Below are positions 13,642 to 21,625 of a stretch of DNA of 64,000 nt, piece by piece. The first letter of the stretch is position 1. Each line of letters starts with the position of its first letter. A model generated the notes under the pieces. It did not search any database and was not told where the DNA came from. It worked only from the letters and a program-made list of their open reading frames with translations. The DNA lies in NCBI GenBank assembly GCA_050115495.1, contig JASFQK010000008.1, positions 64,001-128,000 of the forward strand, given 5' to 3'. The translations under genes and the position numbers were made by a program. The stretch is from Phycisphaerae bacterium (GTDB lineage: Bacteria; Planctomycetota; Phycisphaerae; UBA1845; Fen-1342).

Positions 13642-14769
13642 TTACGCGCGGAACGTGACCGAGACCGCTTGCAGGGGCTGCGGTCCGTCGGCGGCGAGTC
13701 GGTCGGCGAGGTCGCGGGCCTCCTCCGCCGACGTGCACAGCGTGAAGAACGCCGACCCGGAGCCGGTCATGCGGACGGGGCCGGGGCAGAGTCGGCGGAT
13801 GGCAGTTATCCAGACCCGCAGGTCGGGGTAGGTGGCCAGGGCGGGCTCTTCGAGGTCGTTGAAGAGGATCGCCGACAGGGCGGGCGGGTCGGCGAGGCGG
13901 GCGAGGACGTTGGCGAGGGGCGGGCGGGGCTCGGTCGGCGGGTCGCGGTCCCAGGCGGCATAGACCGCCGGCGTGCGACAGAATCCGCCACCGAGCAGCA
14001 GTATGGCGTGGGTGGTGAGGGGGTCGGCGGCTGGGGCGGCAGGTCGAAGAAGGGGACTGGCGCCGAGCCGGGGGGCCTCGCTGTGCTCAGTTGCCGCCGC
14101 GGGCGAGGTGCCTGTCCCCTCTTCCGACCGTTTGTCGGGGACGTCACGATCGCCGGCGCGCTGGCTTGGTTCGGCGGCGGGCACGCTTGCCGGCGGGCGC
14201 TCAAGCTGCTCGCCGGCAGCGGCAGGTCGGCTTCGGTCGGCGCCGGACTCACTGTCGGTCCGGTCGACGCCCGCGTCGCCTCGTGCCTGACCGGCGAAGA
14301 CGTCCTCGATCTGGTCGCCGCGGCCGCGGAGGATACAGAGCGGGCTGTGGAAGAAGAGTGGCACGTCCGAGCCGAGGGCGGCGCCGATGCGAGCGAGGTC
14401 GGCGACGCCGAGCGACCACAGGTCGTTGAGCAGGGCGAGCGTCGTGGCGGCGTTCGAGCTCCCGCCGCCGAGCCCCGCGCCGGCGGGGATCCGCTTGGCG
14501 AGTTCCAGGTGCACGCCGAAGTCGCTGCCCGTGGCCCGGGCCAGCTCATCGGCGGCCCGAAGGGCCAGGTTCCCCCGGTCGGTCGGCAGGCTCGGGTCGT
14601 CGCAGGAGAGCGTCCGGCGGCCGTCCGGAGCCGGGTGAGCGGTGATCGTGTCGTGCAGCGAGACCCGGGCGACGAGCGACTCGATCTCGTGAAACCCATC
14701 CGGCCGCAAACCAACGACGCGGAGCGTCAGATTGATCTTCGCCGGCGATGAGCGGGTGAGTGGGGGCAT
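13642..14769 (-). CDS. ispE: 4-diphosphocytidyl-2-C-methyl-D-erythritol kinase with a ~85-aa internal insertion
   Basis: SPAKINLTL, DGFHEIES, KRIPAGAGLGGGSSNAA, LGSDVPLF, FNDLE, MTGSGSAFF. Confidence 0.93.
   Translation of the reverse strand: MPPLTRSSPAKINLTLRVVGLRPDGFHEIESLVARVSLHDTITAHPAPDGRRTLSCDDPSLPTDRGNLALRAADELARATGSDFGVHLELAKRIPAGAGLGGGSSNAATTLALLNDLWSLGVADLARIGAALGSDVPLFFHSPLCILRGRGDQIEDVFAGQARGDAGVDRTDSESGADRSRPAAAGEQLERPPASVPAAEPSQRAGDRDVPDKRSEEGTGTSPAAATEHSEAPRLGASPLLRPAAPAADPLTTHAILLLGGGFCRTPAVYAAWDRDPPTEPRPPLANVLARLADPPALSAILFNDLEEPALATYPDLRVWITAIRRLCPGPVRMTGSGSAFFTLCTSAEEARDLADRLAADGPQPLQAVSVTFRA
14042..14129. repeat. Palindromic element inside the ispE coding sequence
   Basis: GGTCGAAGAAGGGGACTGGCGCC ... 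GGTGCCTGTCCCCTCTTCCGACC, imperfect inverted repeats. Confidence 0.7.
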
Positions 14770-14775
14770 GGGGGG

Positions 14776-14929: not shown

Positions 14930-15973
14930 TCACGCGGTCATGCGCGTGTCCCAGGCTTGCGCCAAGCGTCGCGGCTCGTTTCGCTTCTTCGAGGTAATCC
15001 ACCACTTGCCTCGGCGGGCAGACAATCCTCGGCTGGCCAGCGCGCGCATCACGTGTCGGTCACCGGCTTCAAGTAGTCGCTTGATGTGACGGGCGGGACC
15101 GAAATCGGCCTGCCGGGTGTAGTACATCCAGCCCGCCACCTGCGCTCGTTTGCGTGCAAGCCCTTCGAGGGAATCCGCGCTGACCACCTTCGCCCCACGG
15201 AGGTATGCTTCGGCCAGCGCAAGGGCCTTCGCGGTCTGCTCTGCCACGATCTTCACGCCGCGCCGGTTGTTCACGCGCAGGTTGTGCACTCGTTGCTCGC
15301 GGTGCTGGGCCGCGAATCCGTTCATCCGTAGCTTTCGGGCGTTGATCGACAGACCGTGACCTTCGATTTGCCTCCGCATCGCGTCGCCTGGCCATTCAGC
15401 TAGGCTCGGCGATTGGACCGAGATCACCATGTCGTCATAGGTGCGCGAGTACCGCGAACCGTTCCGCCCGCACGCGGCCGACAGCGCACGATCGGCGTCG
15501 TAAAGGAAGAGGTTCAGCGCATCAGAGCTTACCGGTGAACCTTGTGCCATACGACCACGCACGGTGCACAAGAATGACAGGAGCAGCGCCACGTCCGATC
15601 CAAAACCCATGCCCAGCAGTCGTTTCTTCAATTCAAGCTGGGAGATCGACGGGTAGCAGTCTCGTACGTCTCGTGTGACCACGTAGCGTCGGCCGAGGTG
15701 CCGCCGAGCACTCGTGAAGCATGATCGCGACTTTGCGCCGCCGTGGGCACATGGGTGGGGTGGAACGGCCCGAACCAGGAATCGGTGTAGCTTTCGGAGT
15801 ATCGACTTGGTCTGAGGCTTGGGTGCGTCGATCTCCCTGATCTTCCCGCACACGCGCTTCTGACGCGTCGGTAGAAACGCGGCGTCCATGTTCTTGGCTA
15901 GCGTCCACAGTCTCGCCTCGGACATGCCGACAGCTTTGGCTATGTCAGCGCCCCTCATCGCTTCTGGTTTCAT
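14930..15973 (-). CDS. Retron-like reverse transcriptase with divergent motifs
   Basis: GKIREIDAP, AHGG, SCFTSARRH (region X), TRDVRDCYPSIS, MAQGSPVSS, YSRTYDDMVIS, GLSINARK, QRVHNLRVN (region Y), GWMYY thumb; GGAG RBS. Confidence 0.9.
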   Translation of the reverse strand: MKPEAMRGADIAKAVGMSEARLWTLAKNMDAAFLPTRQKRVCGKIREIDAPKPQTKSILRKLHRFLVRAVPPHPCAHGGAKSRSCFTSARRHLGRRYVVTRDVRDCYPSISQLELKKRLLGMGFGSDVALLLSFLCTVRGRMAQGSPVSSDALNLFLYDADRALSAACGRNGSRYSRTYDDMVISVQSPSLAEWPGDAMRRQIEGHGLSINARKLRMNGFAAQHREQRVHNLRVNNRRGVKIVAEQTAKALALAEAYLRGAKVVSADSLEGLARKRAQVAGWMYYTRQADFGPARHIKRLLEAGDRHVMRALASRGLSARRGKWWITSKKRNEPRRLAQAWDTRMTA

Positions 15974-16295
15974 CCGTCTCCGTCTCCGACGACAACGTTG
16001 ATCTCAGCTCGTCCTCGACAGACAGCATCTTCTGAATCATTGCGACAAGTGCCTGGCTCACTTGGTCTTCGCTCTGCAAACGTCCGTTAGCAGGTTGCGC
16101 GAGAATGATGAGCACCTCCGGCGGAATCCGCAGGGCATTCGCGAGCCGTCGCAACACATCCAGTGACGGCTGCCGCTCGCCGTTTTCGACGAGGCTTAGA
16201 AACGGAATGCTGACGCCTGCATTGTCGGCGAGCGTAGACAGCCGCATCCCTTTTGCAGCCCGCACTATACGAATGGCCTTGCCAAGCTCTAGCAT
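15945..16295 (-). CDS. XRE/Cro-family helix-turn-helix protein, overlapping the RT start
   Basis: LGKAIRIVRAAKGMRLSTLADNAGVSIPFLSLVENGERQPSLDVLRRLANAL; 29-nt overlap with the RT gene. Confidence 0.92.
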   Translation of the reverse strand: MLELGKAIRIVRAAKGMRLSTLADNAGVSIPFLSLVENGERQPSLDVLRRLANALRIPPEVLIILAQPANGRLQSEDQVSQALVAMIQKMLSVEDELRSTLSSETETDETRSDEGR

Positions 16296-16351
16296 TGGCA
16301 GTCCCTTGAGTTCGATCTGTGAGCACACGCGTTACCCATCGCGCGCTGATA

Positions 16352-16648
16352 TCAGGATGCGAGGAGTGTATCGACCTCTGCCTGGAGTTGATCGAACAGC
16401 AGTTCGAGCTTCTCCGCGAGGTCCATAGCCTCCGCCGCGGCCAGGGTCCGACCGTACCGACCGAGTTCTTCGATCAGCGTGGCCAGAGCGACCGCGTCAT
16501 CCATCGACCCCGAAGTCCCCGAGGCTCTCCGCCGCGCCATTTCTGACGAGAGGAGCTTGCGAATCCGGATGGCGCCATCTTCAACGACGCGAAAGAACTC
16601 GCAGGGCCTGGAGGAACTCCCCGACCACACCAACTCATGATGCTGCAT
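16352..16648 (-). CDS. 98-aa small helical protein, candidate effector of the RT operon
   Basis: GGAGG 6 nt before ATG 16648; amphipathic C-terminal helices (DDAVALATLIEELGRY...EKLELLFDQLQAEVDTLL); lies between the structured leader and the HTH gene. Confidence 0.7.
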   Translation of the reverse strand: MQHHELVWSGSSSRPCEFFRVVEDGAIRIRKLLSSEMARRRASGTSGSMDDAVALATLIEELGRYGRTLAAAEAMDLAEKLELLFDQLQAEVDTLLAS

Positions 16649-16649
16649 A

Positions 16650-16900
16650 CGCAGCCTCCATTGGGTTTGGCGGGAAGAGCATCGCTTCCCGTCGGGGTCC
16701 GACCAGCCGGGGACAGTCCCCGGACTCACGATCGGCAGGCCTGGCAGGGGCCAGGCTCCCGCGGCTAGCGCCGCTCCCGGACGAGCCGGGCAACCTCCCC
16801 GCGACACGAGATCCCGGGGCAGGTGAGGGGTTTGGAGGCTTGGTGCGATCGGTTATTCAGTTTTCAACTGGGCGCGGACAAGCCGGTGGCCCACTAAACT
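16650..16900 (-). ncRNA. Putative RT-associated structured ncRNA/leader (retron msr-msd-like position)
   Basis: Seven adjacent hairpins (16671-16823) enclosed by the inverted repeat AGCCTCCA 16653-16660 / TGGAGGCT 16833-16840, directly downstream of a strong promoter. Confidence 0.65.
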
Positions 16901-16906
16901 GCGGGT

Positions 16907-16935
16907 ATTATACCACACAAGTAAAATGGAGTCAA
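16907..16935 (-). promoter_or_regulatory. sigma70 promoter of the RT operon
   Basis: TTGACT-N17-TATAAT with extended -10 TG and an AT-rich upstream region. Confidence 0.85.
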
Positions 16936-17960: not shown

Positions 17961-18722
17961 TCATGGCCGGGGCTCGGTGCTGCTGAGACGCAGGCGGAGG
18001 AGGAGGTCGTTGAGGGCGGGGGCGGCGGTGGGGTCGGGTGGTAGGGGGCTGGTGGCGGAGGCGGCTTCGAGGGTGGCGGTCAGGCGGCGGTATTCGTGCT
18101 CGTGGAAGGCGAGATCGGTGTCGGCCAGGGGGTCGTGCTCGCCGCCGGCGGTCTTGCGGGCGATGAGGTCGTCGACGTGCGGGAGGCGGTGGGCCTCGTT
18201 CAGACGGGGGAGGTTCGCCTCGATCTCGCCGGTACGCATTAGGTGCAGGCCGGCCAGCAGCACGCGGTACGTGTAGAGCAGCGGCTTGAGGCGGCGGTGC
18301 TGCTCGACGAGCCGCCACTGCGTGCGGGCGAAGCCGAGGTAATGCAGCGCGTGCTGCTTCGTGACGCAGCCGCGGGCGATGGCCTTCAACTCGTCGTGGA
18401 CGGGCGTCGTGTGCAACACGAGCGGCGAGTAGAGCTGCTCGAGCACGTACCCGTTCGGGCGGAGCAGCAGGCGGAAGAACTTGCGGACGTCGTGCGTGAC
18501 GAGGTCGAGATCGACGCCGGCGGGGCCCGTGGTGCACTCGATCGTCTCGGGCGGCGGCGTTAGACCGATAACTTCGCGGAGCGGCAGCACGTGGACGCCG
18601 CGAAGGTCGTAGTCGGAGTCCGCCGACGGGAAGCCGTAAAGGTGGGCGCCGCTGATGGTGACGAAGAGGAGCGGGTAGGGCTGGGCGGCGATCACGCTTT
18701 GAAGTTGTGGCGGGGCCGGCAT
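17961..18722 (-). CDS. Pol-beta superfamily nucleotidyltransferase (YcgL/RlaP-like, Nuc-transf)
   Basis: ISGAHLYGFPSADSDYDLRGVH, HDVRKFFRLLLRPNGYVLEQLYSP, KPLLYTYRVLL. Confidence 0.88.
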   Translation of the reverse strand: MPAPPQLQSVIAAQPYPLLFVTISGAHLYGFPSADSDYDLRGVHVLPLREVIGLTPPPETIECTTGPAGVDLDLVTHDVRKFFRLLLRPNGYVLEQLYSPLVLHTTPVHDELKAIARGCVTKQHALHYLGFARTQWRLVEQHRRLKPLLYTYRVLLAGLHLMRTGEIEANLPRLNEAHRLPHVDDLIARKTAGGEHDPLADTDLAFHEHEYRRLTATLEAASATSPLPPDPTAAPALNDLLLRLRLSSTEPRP

Positions 18723-19809: not shown

Positions 19810-20781
19810 CTACATATTGTCGTTTCCGAACGTCCGCTGGAACAGGGCCGGGACGATTTCGCCGGCGGTGCCGCGCAACCACACGTCACCGCCACCGGGT
19901 TCGTCCGGATCGATCACGATCAGCTTGGCGCCGGCGGCGCGGGCCCTGGCGGGCAACATGGCCGCGGGCAGGACGACGCCGGACGTGCCGATGATCAGCA
20001 TCACGTCGCAGCGCCGGCTGTCGGACAGGGCTTGGCTCCAGTCCGGCTCGGTCAGCGGCTCGCCGAAAAGCACGGCGCTCGGACGCACCAACCCGCGCCA
20101 GGAGAGACCGGCCAGCGGGCGGATCGCCAGGGCCACACGCAGCAGCGCCATCCAGCTCAGCTCGGCGGCCTCCAGGCGGCGGACGATCCTGGCCAGACCG
20201 GCCCGGGTTAGCAGCCGCACGAAACGCTTGCGCAGCGTAACGACCCGCAGCAGCGAGCCGTGGATCTCGCGGACGGTGGTGCTCCCGGCTTCCTGATGCA
20301 GGCCGTCGACGTTCTGCGTGACCACGGTCACGTTGACGTGCTTCTCGGCGTGGGCGATGGCCTGGTGGGCGGCGTTGGGCTTCGCCTGCGCCAGCGGCCG
20401 CAGCAGCCGGGCCAGGAAGTGGGCGAGTCGCCGCGGACGCCACAGGGCCGTTCGCACCAACCCGGTCCACGTCGCGAACTCGTCGGGCGAGAACTCTGTC
20501 CAGAGTCCGCCGGCAGTGCGGAAGGTGTCGATGCCGCATTCGGCGGAGACGCCCGCGCCGGTGAAGACGACCAGACGCTCGGCGGAGCGCAGGTAGTCGG
20601 CGGCGAGATCCAGATTGTCGCCGGCTGGCGTTATGTCTCGCGTACACTCGTTGGCTGGCGTGATATGGCACGCTCTCCGGTCGCGGTCACGTGATGCAAC
20701 TCCGCCGGGCTTTGATGAGGAAGGCGTTGACGCGGGTGTAGTCGGGGCGGTCCGGTAATGTTGTTCGTTCGTACGCCGCAT
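19810..20781 (-). CDS. Sir2/CobB-family NAD-dependent deacylase (true start uncertain)
   Basis: VFTGAGVSAECGIDTFR, PNAAH, TQNVDGLHQEAG, EIHGS, RPSAVLFGE, IGTSGVVLPAA; the Zn-finger cysteines are absent. Confidence 0.9.
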   Translation of the reverse strand: MRRTNEQHYRTAPTTPASTPSSSKPGGVASRDRDRRACHITPANECTRDITPAGDNLDLAADYLRSAERLVVFTGAGVSAECGIDTFRTAGGLWTEFSPDEFATWTGLVRTALWRPRRLAHFLARLLRPLAQAKPNAAHQAIAHAEKHVNVTVVTQNVDGLHQEAGSTTVREIHGSLLRVVTLRKRFVRLLTRAGLARIVRRLEAAELSWMALLRVALAIRPLAGLSWRGLVRPSAVLFGEPLTEPDWSQALSDSRRCDVMLIIGTSGVVLPAAMLPARARAAGAKLIVIDPDEPGGGDVWLRGTAGEIVPALFQRTFGNDNM

Positions 20782-21625
20782 CGAATCGACGATGTAGCTC
20801 CAGCCGCCAGGCGTCGACGTCGGGCCAGGGGACCTCGCCGCGGCGGATGGCCAGCAGGCGGTCGCGATGCTCGTCGACGGCCACGGGGACCGTCGCTTCG
20901 CGCAGGGCGACGATTCCCGCCAGCAGCAGCCGGATCAGGTGCATGGCGTGCTTCCATTTGATGTCGCGCTGGCTGTTGAGGCGGGCGGAGAGCTTGCGGA
21001 ACTGGCTGAGCACGTAGCCGCCGTAGGTCTGGTAGATGAGCTTCGAGAGGAACGCGGTGCGCAAGTCGAGCAGTTCGCGGGCCAGCGGCGTGGCATGCTC
21101 GACGAGCGGCGTGTAGAGGCACTCGAGGACGTTCGGGTTGGCCTTCAGGGCGAGCGTGAGGAACTTCTGCAATTCCCAGTAGCACTCCTGCGACTGGGCG
21201 TTTTCGAGCTGCTCCGGTACGCCGTAGAGCGACCAGTGCATCTCCGCCGGCGGGAGGTAGACGCCGCGGCGGTCGACGTCGGAGCCTTCGTGGTCGAGGC
21301 CATACGCCCGCGAGCCGACCACGCAGCGGTAGATGACGCAGTCGAGCAGGTCGTAGTCGTCGAGGACGTTGGCGGCGGACCAGATCTGTTCGCGCAATAA
21401 CTGCTTGAGGACGGCGAACTGGTTGCGGCGCAGGGTGGCCTCGCTGCCGTCGGCGAAGCGGACGCGGTAGGAGTGCGTGTGGTCCGCCGGCGACTTGACG
21501 ATGAGGCCGACCGCGCCGGGCGGATGCTGCACGTCGCTGCCGGCGGCCTGGACGCCGATGCGGCTGACGACCTGCGTCCCGGGCGGGACGATGGCGTTCG
21601 GGTCGTAAGCGATCCTGCGGGGCAA
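20687..21625 (-). CDS. Second YcgL/RlaP-like nucleotidyltransferase with an N-terminal SH3-like extension
   Basis: VVGSRAYGLDHEGSDVDRRGVY, WELQKFLTLALKANPNVLECL, WKHAMHLIRLL, LPDRPDY. Confidence 0.9.
   Translation of the reverse strand: MPRRIAYDPNAIVPPGTQVVSRIGVQAAGSDVQHPPGAVGLIVKSPADHTHSYRVRFADGSEATLRRNQFAVLKQLLREQIWSAANVLDDYDLLDCVIYRCVVGSRAYGLDHEGSDVDRRGVYLPPAEMHWSLYGVPEQLENAQSQECYWELQKFLTLALKANPNVLECLYTPLVEHATPLARELLDLRTAFLSKLIYQTYGGYVLSQFRKLSARLNSQRDIKWKHAMHLIRLLLAGIVALREATVPVAVDEHRDRLLAIRRGEVPWPDVDAWRLELHRRFDAAYERTTLPDRPDYTRVNAFLIKARRSCIT

What the first reader, a model, noticed from the sequence alone, without database searches (positions are those of the whole stretch)
16352..16848. 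RBS of the small ORF is sequestered by the closing stem of the leader RNA
Seen: in the transcript, AGCCUCCA (16840-16833) is exactly complementary to UGGAGGCU (16660-16653), which contains the GGAGG Shine-Dalgarno of the 98-aa ORF. Inference: the ORF is translationally silenced until reverse transcription, RNase H cleavage or cDNA binding opens the stem, giving an RT-controlled toxin switch. I recall RT-DNA-dependent derepression of a small toxin being reported for a type VI retron; that should be verified.
Basis: partly seen in the sequence, partly recalled or inferred. Interest (0 to 1): 0.8.

Follow-up and report, generated by a model that had tools for sequence, protein, structure and literature searches.

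The report
RNA clamp silencing retron toxin gene
This anti-phage system (a type VI retron) folds the start of its RNA back over the ribosome-binding site and first codons of a small putative toxin gene; that is a known design, here in a little-studied lineage with some undescribed extra RNA features, and whether reverse transcription unlocks it is untested.

Summary
The 8-bp pairing is real and is half of a 20-bp clamp: the RNA's 5' strand covers the Shine-Dalgarno (SD) and codons 6-9 of a conserved 98-aa protein (SP). The locus is a type VI retron (leader-SP-HTH-RT). Across 21 loci the 5'-strand/coding helix dominates the fold in 18 and covaries. The SD is covered directly in 14; in 7 it is caged in a hairpin instead. 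One metatranscriptome contig spans leader plus SP.

SD masking is already described for Retron-Vpa2 (DNA-dependent derepression) and Retron-Sen3 (SP made constitutively, held by HTH), so 'RT-controlled switch' is plausible but unproven. Against a pure switch: SP-HTH binding is predicted (0.75 vs control 0.05), Vpa2's direct repeat is not conserved, and deleting the clamp in silico frees only 1-2 kcal/mol.

Not found in the papers I read: (1) covarying leader/3'-spacer helices that cross the clamp and put it at the far end of a ~100-120-nt template; (2) an rRNA-type boxA just before the clamp in 14 of 21 loci (degenerate here); (3) an RT clade with no YxDD tyrosine (0 of 120).

Verdict: new variant of a known kind.

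The parts
16907..16935 (-). sigma-70-type promoter (TTGACT-17-TATAAT); transcription start inferred near 16900
   Evidence: 1 found, 0.5 expected; similar -35/-10 boxes upstream of most homologous leaders
16862..16873 (-). position of an rRNA-type boxA in homologues; degenerate in this copy (5 of 12 matches)
   Evidence: at least 9 of 12 matches to the host 16S-leader boxA in 14 of 21 loci
16841..16852 (-). 5' clamp strand, anti-CDS half (helix H1, 5' side)
16833..16840 (-). 5' clamp strand, anti-SD half (helix H2, 5' side); resembles the host 16S 3' end
16735..16825 (-). four small hairpins; inferred reverse-transcription template (msd-like), variable in sequence
   Evidence: template role inferred from position 5' of the a2-like strand
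16724..16734 (-). a2-like strand; pairs with 16324-16313 after the SP stop codon
   Evidence: (7 of 11 pairs with two-sided changes)
16692..16722 (-). hairpin P (16722-16708), strand b (16707-16702, pairs with 16350-16345), strand c (16699-16692, pairs with SP codons at 16513-16506)
   Evidence: b 6 of 6 and c 5 of 8 pairs with two-sided changes
16672..16690 (-). hairpin R upstream of the SD
   Evidence: 100% of cells paired
16653..16660 (-). SD-containing strand (H2, 3' side)
16352..16648 (-). SP, 98 aa, three-helix bundle, putative toxin; codons 6-9 (16632-16621) pair with the clamp
16313..16350 (-). SP-HTH spacer: strand b', hairpin Q (16344-16327), a1-like strand (16324-16313) with candidate priming G at 16317
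   Evidence: priming role inferred
16337..16886 (-). stretch covered by one 550-nt contig of an RNA run (leader plus whole SP gene; hybrid-RNA-like)
   Evidence: one study, contigs only, strand not shown
15945..16295 (-). Cro/C1-type HTH protein, 116 aa (HTH_VI)
   Evidence: (E 3.1e-19)
14930..15973 (-). retron-type reverse transcriptase, 347 aa, catalytic motif TYDD
   Evidence: (RT_VI E 3.6e-38)

Best explanation
This is a type VI retron with two locks on a small abortive-infection toxin. (1) Shown in sequence and by covariation: one transcript carries the leader and the SP gene, and its 5' strand clamps the SD and codons 6-9, keeping SP initiation low. (2) Shown by covariation: three helices join the middle of the leader to the SP coding region and to the spacer after the SP stop codon. 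They share no bases with the clamp and cross it. Inferred: both sets coexist as a pseudoknot and build the a1/a2-like priming site, which also needs ribosomes kept off the SP gene. (3) Inferred: RT primes near 16317 and copies leftward through about 100-120 nt; on reaching the clamp strand it displaces or degrades it, and the DNA end can compete for it, raising SP synthesis. (4) Predicted: HTH binds SP and neutralises leak-through. By analogy with Vpa2 and Sen3, HTH also binds RT, and phage recombination or RecBCD-inhibiting proteins tip the balance. (5) Inferred: in most relatives a boxA recruits the Nus complex so that HTH and RT are transcribed past an untranslated SP gene.
For: Gene order and profile hits; 7 of 7 loci found by RT alone have an SP-like ORF and HTH upstream. 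The 5' strand is predicted to make 9.8 or more pairs with the SP coding region in 18 of 21 loci. On 12 aligned loci, 87.9% of 728 cells pair and 37 of 61 pairs change on both sides; 0 of 500 shuffles reach this, and slid controls give 38-47%. The initiation region is caged in two different ways: direct anti-SD pairing in 14 loci, or an SD/start-codon hairpin in 7. GGAGG opening costs 7.5 kcal/mol; 6 of 110 host GGAGG-led ORFs cost as much. An RNA contig bridges leader and SP. SP-HTH score 0.75, best control 0.05; the mark was reached by 116 of 157 solved and 2 of 215 mismatched pairs; contact agreement at least 96%, partner pLDDT at least 82. Precedent.
Against: No experiment was done, and where RT stops is unknown; in Vpa2 the copied part is a stem-loop within the first arm. 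In silico removal of the clamp or template lowers SD opening only to 5.7-6.5 kcal/mol because other pairings form, and opening of the whole -20..+13 region (14.9) is no higher than the host median (16.1). The SD pairs with the 5' strand at probability 0.45 or more in only 8 of 21 single-sequence folds. The H2 core shows little covariation (1 of 6 pairs two-sided). Sen3 has a masked SD yet makes SP basally. A blind search recovers the a1/a2-like helix as best pairing in 13 of 21 loci and beats 95 of 100 shuffles in only 7 of 21. The candidate priming G is absent in 3 of 21 loci. The boxA is degenerate in this copy.
Confidence: 0.5

Rival explanations
1. Sen3-like: the clamp is a scaffold or damper. 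SP is made basally, is held by HTH, and is released after translation by a change in the RT-HTH-RNA-DNA complex.
For: Sen3 has the same basal-stem SD and a long-range repeat after the SP stop, yet makes SP constitutively. SP-HTH binding is predicted through the HTH C-terminal helices, as modelled for Sen3. In silico gain from opening the clamp is small.
Against: Two different folds both cage the initiation region across 21 loci, which a pure scaffold would not need. Sen3's basal SP was seen with a C-terminal tag that abolished defence; I infer the tag could disturb the RNA next to the stop codon.
Confidence: 0.3
2. Vpa2-like action in trans: the 5' end of the cDNA base-pairs with a repeat in the riboregulator loop and opens it.
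For: Shown for Vpa2 with msDNA supplied in trans. This window has an 8-nt repeat (CCAAACCC) beside both halves of H2.
Against: That repeat is at chance level (18% of shuffles) and lies 93 nt from the priming end. No template/initiation-region repeat above chance was found in the other correctly placed loci of the 16 tested (the L010 and L018 rows were mis-anchored, and L003, L025 probably so).
Confidence: 0.1
3. Fold switch: the clamp forms during transcription and is replaced by the long-range helices once the 3' spacer is made, independent of RT catalysis.
For: The two helix sets cross and cannot be drawn as one nested fold. Such alternative conformations were proposed for Sen3.
Against: The sets share no bases. 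The nested fold with long-range helices forced is 12 kcal/mol less stable than the clamp fold, and the clamp persists when those strands are blocked.
Confidence: 0.1

Closest known systems
Retron-Vpa2, type VI retron of Vibrio parahaemolyticus (Zhang et al., bioRxiv 10.1101/2025.10.22.683967)
   Same: Leader-SP-HTH-RT order; one RNA holding template and SP gene; SD and start sequestered; 3' end wraps back as an a1/a2-like priming helix.
   Different: In Vpa2 the SD and start lie in stem-loops of a second arm and a 7-nt direct repeat is conserved; SP is 55 aa; RT motif is YADD. Here the SD is clamped by the 5'-terminal strand, the clamp crosses the priming helices, no repeat is conserved, SP is 98 aa and the motif is TYDD.
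Retron-Sen3, type VI cl2075 lineage (Garcia-Rodriguez et al., bioRxiv 10.64898/2026.04.27.721009)
   Same: SD in the basal stem; small hairpin upstream of the 5' repeat; long-range repeat after the SP stop; HTH modelled to bind SP through C-terminal helices.
   Different: SP is 79 aa, hosts are Proteobacteria, motif is YVDD, and its long-range stem showed no significant covariation. Here the SP family differs, named relatives are mostly Planctomycetota, and the long-range helices show many two-sided changes.
rRNA-operon leader (5' hairpin plus boxA, NusB-S10 antitermination; PMC13753749)
   Same: A boxA word near the 5' end, often after a small hairpin, matching the host's own 16S and 23S leader boxA; host has NusB and Rho.
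   Different: It precedes a retron RNA with an untranslated gene. The copy in this window is degenerate. Function untested.

Membership tests
Type VI retron | Operon order structured RNA - SP - HTH - RT | tested here: met
   same order in the 20 other loci
Type VI retron | HTH of the type VI cluster | tested here: met
   HTH_VI is the best PADLOC hit, E 3.1e-19, next 2.3e-07
Type VI retron | RT belongs to clade 3, type VI | tested here: inconclusive
   RT_VI is the best profile (129.5 bits) but RT_III-A scores 115.4; no tree with reference type IV/V/VI RTs was built
Type VI retron | Retron RT motifs (catalytic aspartates, region X, YxDD, region Y VTG) | tested here: inconclusive
   Aspartates kept (DD in 119 and 118 of 120), region X Ala and His kept (111 of 120, 9 gaps); Tyr of YxDD in 0 of 120; VTG read as VH[NSG] (the canonical motif names are recalled)
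Type VI retron | SP from a known cluster (PADLOC SP_VI) | tested here: inconclusive
   No hit for the window protein; 2 of 100 family members hit SP_VI weakly, best E 4.6e-4. The type includes lineages with SPs outside the main clusters
Type VI retron | Single abundant RNA covering leader and SP gene | tested here: inconclusive
   One 550-nt contig of one RNA run bridges 16337-16886 with no other letters; contigs cannot show ends, strand or level, and DNA carry-over is not excluded
Type VI retron | RT-dependent ssDNA, SP toxicity, phage defence | not testable with these tools
   needs experiments
Vpa2-type translational control | SD or start codon sequestered in conserved structure | tested here: met
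Vpa2-type translational control | Conserved direct repeat in template loop and riboregulator loop | tested here: not met
   (16 loci tested); the Vpa2 repeat itself is in a supplement I could not open
Vpa2-type translational control | cDNA needed for SP translation | not testable with these tools
   needs reporter assays
Sen3-type post-translational control | HTH binds and neutralises SP | tested here: inconclusive
   binding predicted, score 0.75 vs best control 0.05; neutralisation not testable

The most novel reading that the evidence does not exclude
A third control logic within type VI retrons: a cis-acting read-through trigger. The RT primes downstream of the toxin gene and copies back to the RNA's 5' end, stripping a 20-bp clamp off the toxin's own SD and first codons in the same pseudoknotted molecule. 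An rRNA-type boxA carries transcription past the silenced gene, and the RT clade has lost the YxDD tyrosine.
Probability: 0.25. Interest if true: 0.75.

Novelty: new variant of a known kind. Interest (0 to 1): 0.48.

Why it matters
The two published type VI retrons disagree on whether the masked SD matters. This lineage offers a clean test: the clamp, the priming helices and the template are all defined by natural compensatory changes, so stem-breaking and rescue mutants can be designed directly. If RT does strip the clamp, cDNA synthesis itself is the switch that turns on a toxin. The boxA suggests how a transcript with an untranslated gene escapes Rho, a question neither preprint's main text raises.

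Tried and rejected
Rfam: only a tRNA in the window.

Viral contigs: no relatives by SP, RT or a DNA pattern. Plasmids: only distant RTs (22-30% identity in the listed rows) and generic HTHs, so no reference type VI sequences for a tree.

SP fold search: no PDB match at E <= 0.001, only generic helical bundles. No Pfam or NCBIfam family above cut-off. ESM Atlas gave nothing usable.

The CCAAACCC repeat as a Vpa2-type trigger was rejected. The predicted cDNA has no special fold (z -0.4). Cognate versus cross-locus duplex energies were not discriminating: the best non-cognate partner was as good or better in 8 of 16 loci. A longer 151-aa reading of the SP frame was rejected because homologues start at the same Met and are 93-103 aa.

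In one search the RNA contig over HTH and the RT start has depth 3.1 against 35.1 for leader plus SP, and 16300-16336, most of RT and the flanks are uncovered; contig depth cannot rank genes, so I do not use this.

Dropped loci: L004, L007, L014 (weak SP hits without HTH or RT), L001 (contig ends inside RT), L027 (unrelated weak RT hit), and duplicates L017, L020-L023, L026, L029. Orders and class centred on G744, G621 and G453 gave 1 of 20, 1 of 12 and 0 of 18.

Full report
Observation. An 8-bp match alone is weak, since one search lists 7 perfect 8-9-bp inverted pairs in 701 nt. Folding a longer stretch shows that the same 5' strand continues into a 12-bp helix (H1) with SP codons 6-9, giving a 20-bp clamp around the start codon (z -3.3, z -4.3). 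Pair probabilities are 0.88-1.0 for H1 and 0.51-0.89 for the SD helix H2.

The locus. A near-consensus promoter precedes a leader of about 250 nt, the small protein (SP), a Cro/C1 HTH and an RT. The best PADLOC profiles are HTH_VI (E 3.1e-19) and RT_VI (E 3.6e-38, with RT_III-A 14 bits behind). SP is conserved: 13 other proteins at 67-83% identity and 142 representatives at E <= 0.001, a few of them spurious by length. It folds as three helices (pLDDT 85) with no significant structural match; 2 of 100 members hit SP_VI weakly. The RT clade has 120 members at E <= 1e-30, and those with an organism name are mostly Planctomycetota. None of the 120 has Tyr at YxDD, while the aspartates are kept. 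The system is patchy: 6 of 279 genomes in the order, 5 of 401 in the class, none of 6 other genomes of the genus, and 4 of 401 in another class.

Conservation of the clamp. I compared 21 distinct loci including this one. On the 12 that align, the structure I named has 87.9% of 728 cells paired and 37 of 61 pairs changed on both sides; 0 of 500 shuffles reach this and slid controls give 38-47%. That structure was drawn from the window sequence and related sequences inflate such counts. An unsupervised consensus fold of 8 loci recovers H1 and H2. In single-sequence folds the 5' strand makes 9.8 or more pairs with the SP coding region in 18 of 21 loci, including all 5 loci added last through RT alone. 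The SD is complementary to the 5' strand in 14 loci. In the other 7 (L010, L024, L025, L030-L033) that strand pairs just upstream, and a hairpin encloses the SD and start codon. Two folds with the same effect argue for selection on blocking initiation. The H2 core itself hardly covaries (1 of 6 pairs), as expected for an SD, and it pairs with the 5' strand at probability 0.45 or more in only 8 of 21 folds.

A second set of helices. Three leader strands pair far downstream: c with SP codons at 16513-16506, b with bases just after the stop codon, and a with 16324-16313. Two-sided changes occur in 5 of 8, 6 of 6 and 7 of 11 pairs. A blind per-locus search is weaker: it returns the a helix as best pairing in 13 of 21 loci and beats 95 of 100 shuffles in 7 of 21. 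These helices nest among themselves, cross the clamp and share no bases with it. Forcing them into a nested fold costs 12 kcal/mol, and blocking their strands leaves the clamp intact, so I infer a pseudoknot. Helix a matches the a1/a2-like wrap-back described for Vpa2. A G at 16317 follows a bulge at the end of the a1-like strand in 18 of 21 loci. If priming is there, the template runs toward the 5' end and meets the anti-SD after about 100 nt and the end of the clamp after about 120 nt, similar to product sizes of Vpa2 (86 nt) and Sen3 (112 and 145 nt). A ribosome translating SP would melt c and b, so the clamp may also protect the priming fold (inference).

boxA. Just 5' of the clamp, 14 of 21 loci match the host's 16S-leader boxA at 9 or more of 12 positions; such matches occur at 2e-4 per position in the genome. 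The same word stands upstream of the host 16S and 23S genes, and the host has NusB and Rho. I placed the anchor on this motif by eye, but its position is fixed by the clamp. The window's own copy has 5 of 12. A hairpin-plus-boxA layout binds NusB in B. subtilis (PMC13753749, passages). Searches for retron with boxA found 0 papers, and neither type VI preprint's main text contains boxA, NusB, Rho, antitermination or pseudoknot.

Expression. One wetland metatranscriptome has a 550-nt contig identical to 16337-16886, bridging the leader and the whole SP gene. This fits a hybrid RNA. It is one study, contigs only, and DNA carry-over is not excluded.

Does RT open the stem? For Vpa2 it is shown that cDNA is needed for SP translation and works in trans, with a 7-nt repeat proposed as the device (parts 1-4 of 8 of the text and passages read). 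For Sen3 the SD lies in the basal stem, as here, yet SP is made basally and HTH neutralises it (parts 1, 2, 4-8 of 9 read). Supplements of both were closed. In this lineage no such repeat is conserved. SD opening costs 7.5 kcal/mol against a host mean of 4.2 (6 of 110 as high), but removing the clamp lowers it only to 5.7-6.5, and the wider initiation region is not unusually closed. SP-HTH binding is predicted with score 0.75 against a best control of 0.05; the mark was reached by 116 of 157 solved and 2 of 215 mismatched pairs, runs agree in at least 96% of contacts, partner pLDDT is at least 82, and these counts hold only roughly with my own alignments. The contacts include the HTH C-terminal helices, as modelled for Sen3.

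Verdict. I favour two locks, an RNA clamp that RT loosens plus an HTH antitoxin (0.5), over a Sen3-like post-translational model (0.3), a trans-acting repeat (0.1) or an RT-independent fold switch (0.1). It works like the published type VI retrons and is very probably one, though RT placement by tree is untested. SD masking is already known. The clade, the SP family, the crossing helices, the boxA and the RT motif were not found in what I read. A SPIRE survey lists type VI mainly in Bacteroidota, Bacillota and Pseudomonadota and notes that its cut-off drops many type VI RTs (PMC13712802, passages).

Noticed in passing
window 14930-15973 and 120 homologues: The whole RT clade lacks the Tyr of YxDD (TYDD 34, VADD 27, SADD 10, LADD 8 and others) and reads VH[NSG] where retron RTs usually have VTG (recalled); the aspartates are kept.
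   Followed up: partly
G000 contigs C7, C8, C25, C30, C32, C36, C46, C61: A repeated element ends in a boxA-like word followed by different flanks that often continue like the extended boxA of the retron leaders; possibly an insertion-sequence end that carries or targets boxA.
   Followed up: no
G000, about 20 places, many about 110 nt from contig starts: A second repeated element with an identical end containing TTTTGACAA, probably an insertion sequence that breaks the assembly.
   Followed up: no
L012 (SP and RT) and L006 (RT): L012 has a frameshift in SP and only a short RT match; L006's RT is split over two frames. Decaying copies or assembly errors.
   Followed up: no
window 13642-14770: An IspE-like (GHMP kinase) gene follows the RT and carries a long low-complexity insertion between its two Pfam domains.
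   Followed up: no
window 17961-18722 and 20687-21625: Two predicted nucleotidyltransferase-like ORFs (family recalled, no NCBIfam hit) and a Sir2-type deacylase at 19810-20781 lie upstream of the retron.
   Followed up: no
window 16296-16324: The a1-like strand ends about 7 nt before the HTH ribosome-binding site, so forming the priming helix could affect HTH translation.
   Followed up: no
G000:C34:41954-42670 (L027): A second, distant RT-like gene in the same genome.
   Followed up: no
L032 and L028 upstream flanks: L032 lies next to a tRNA-like sequence and L028 next to a HicA-like small gene (both recognised from memory), consistent with mobile or defence islands.
   Followed up: no
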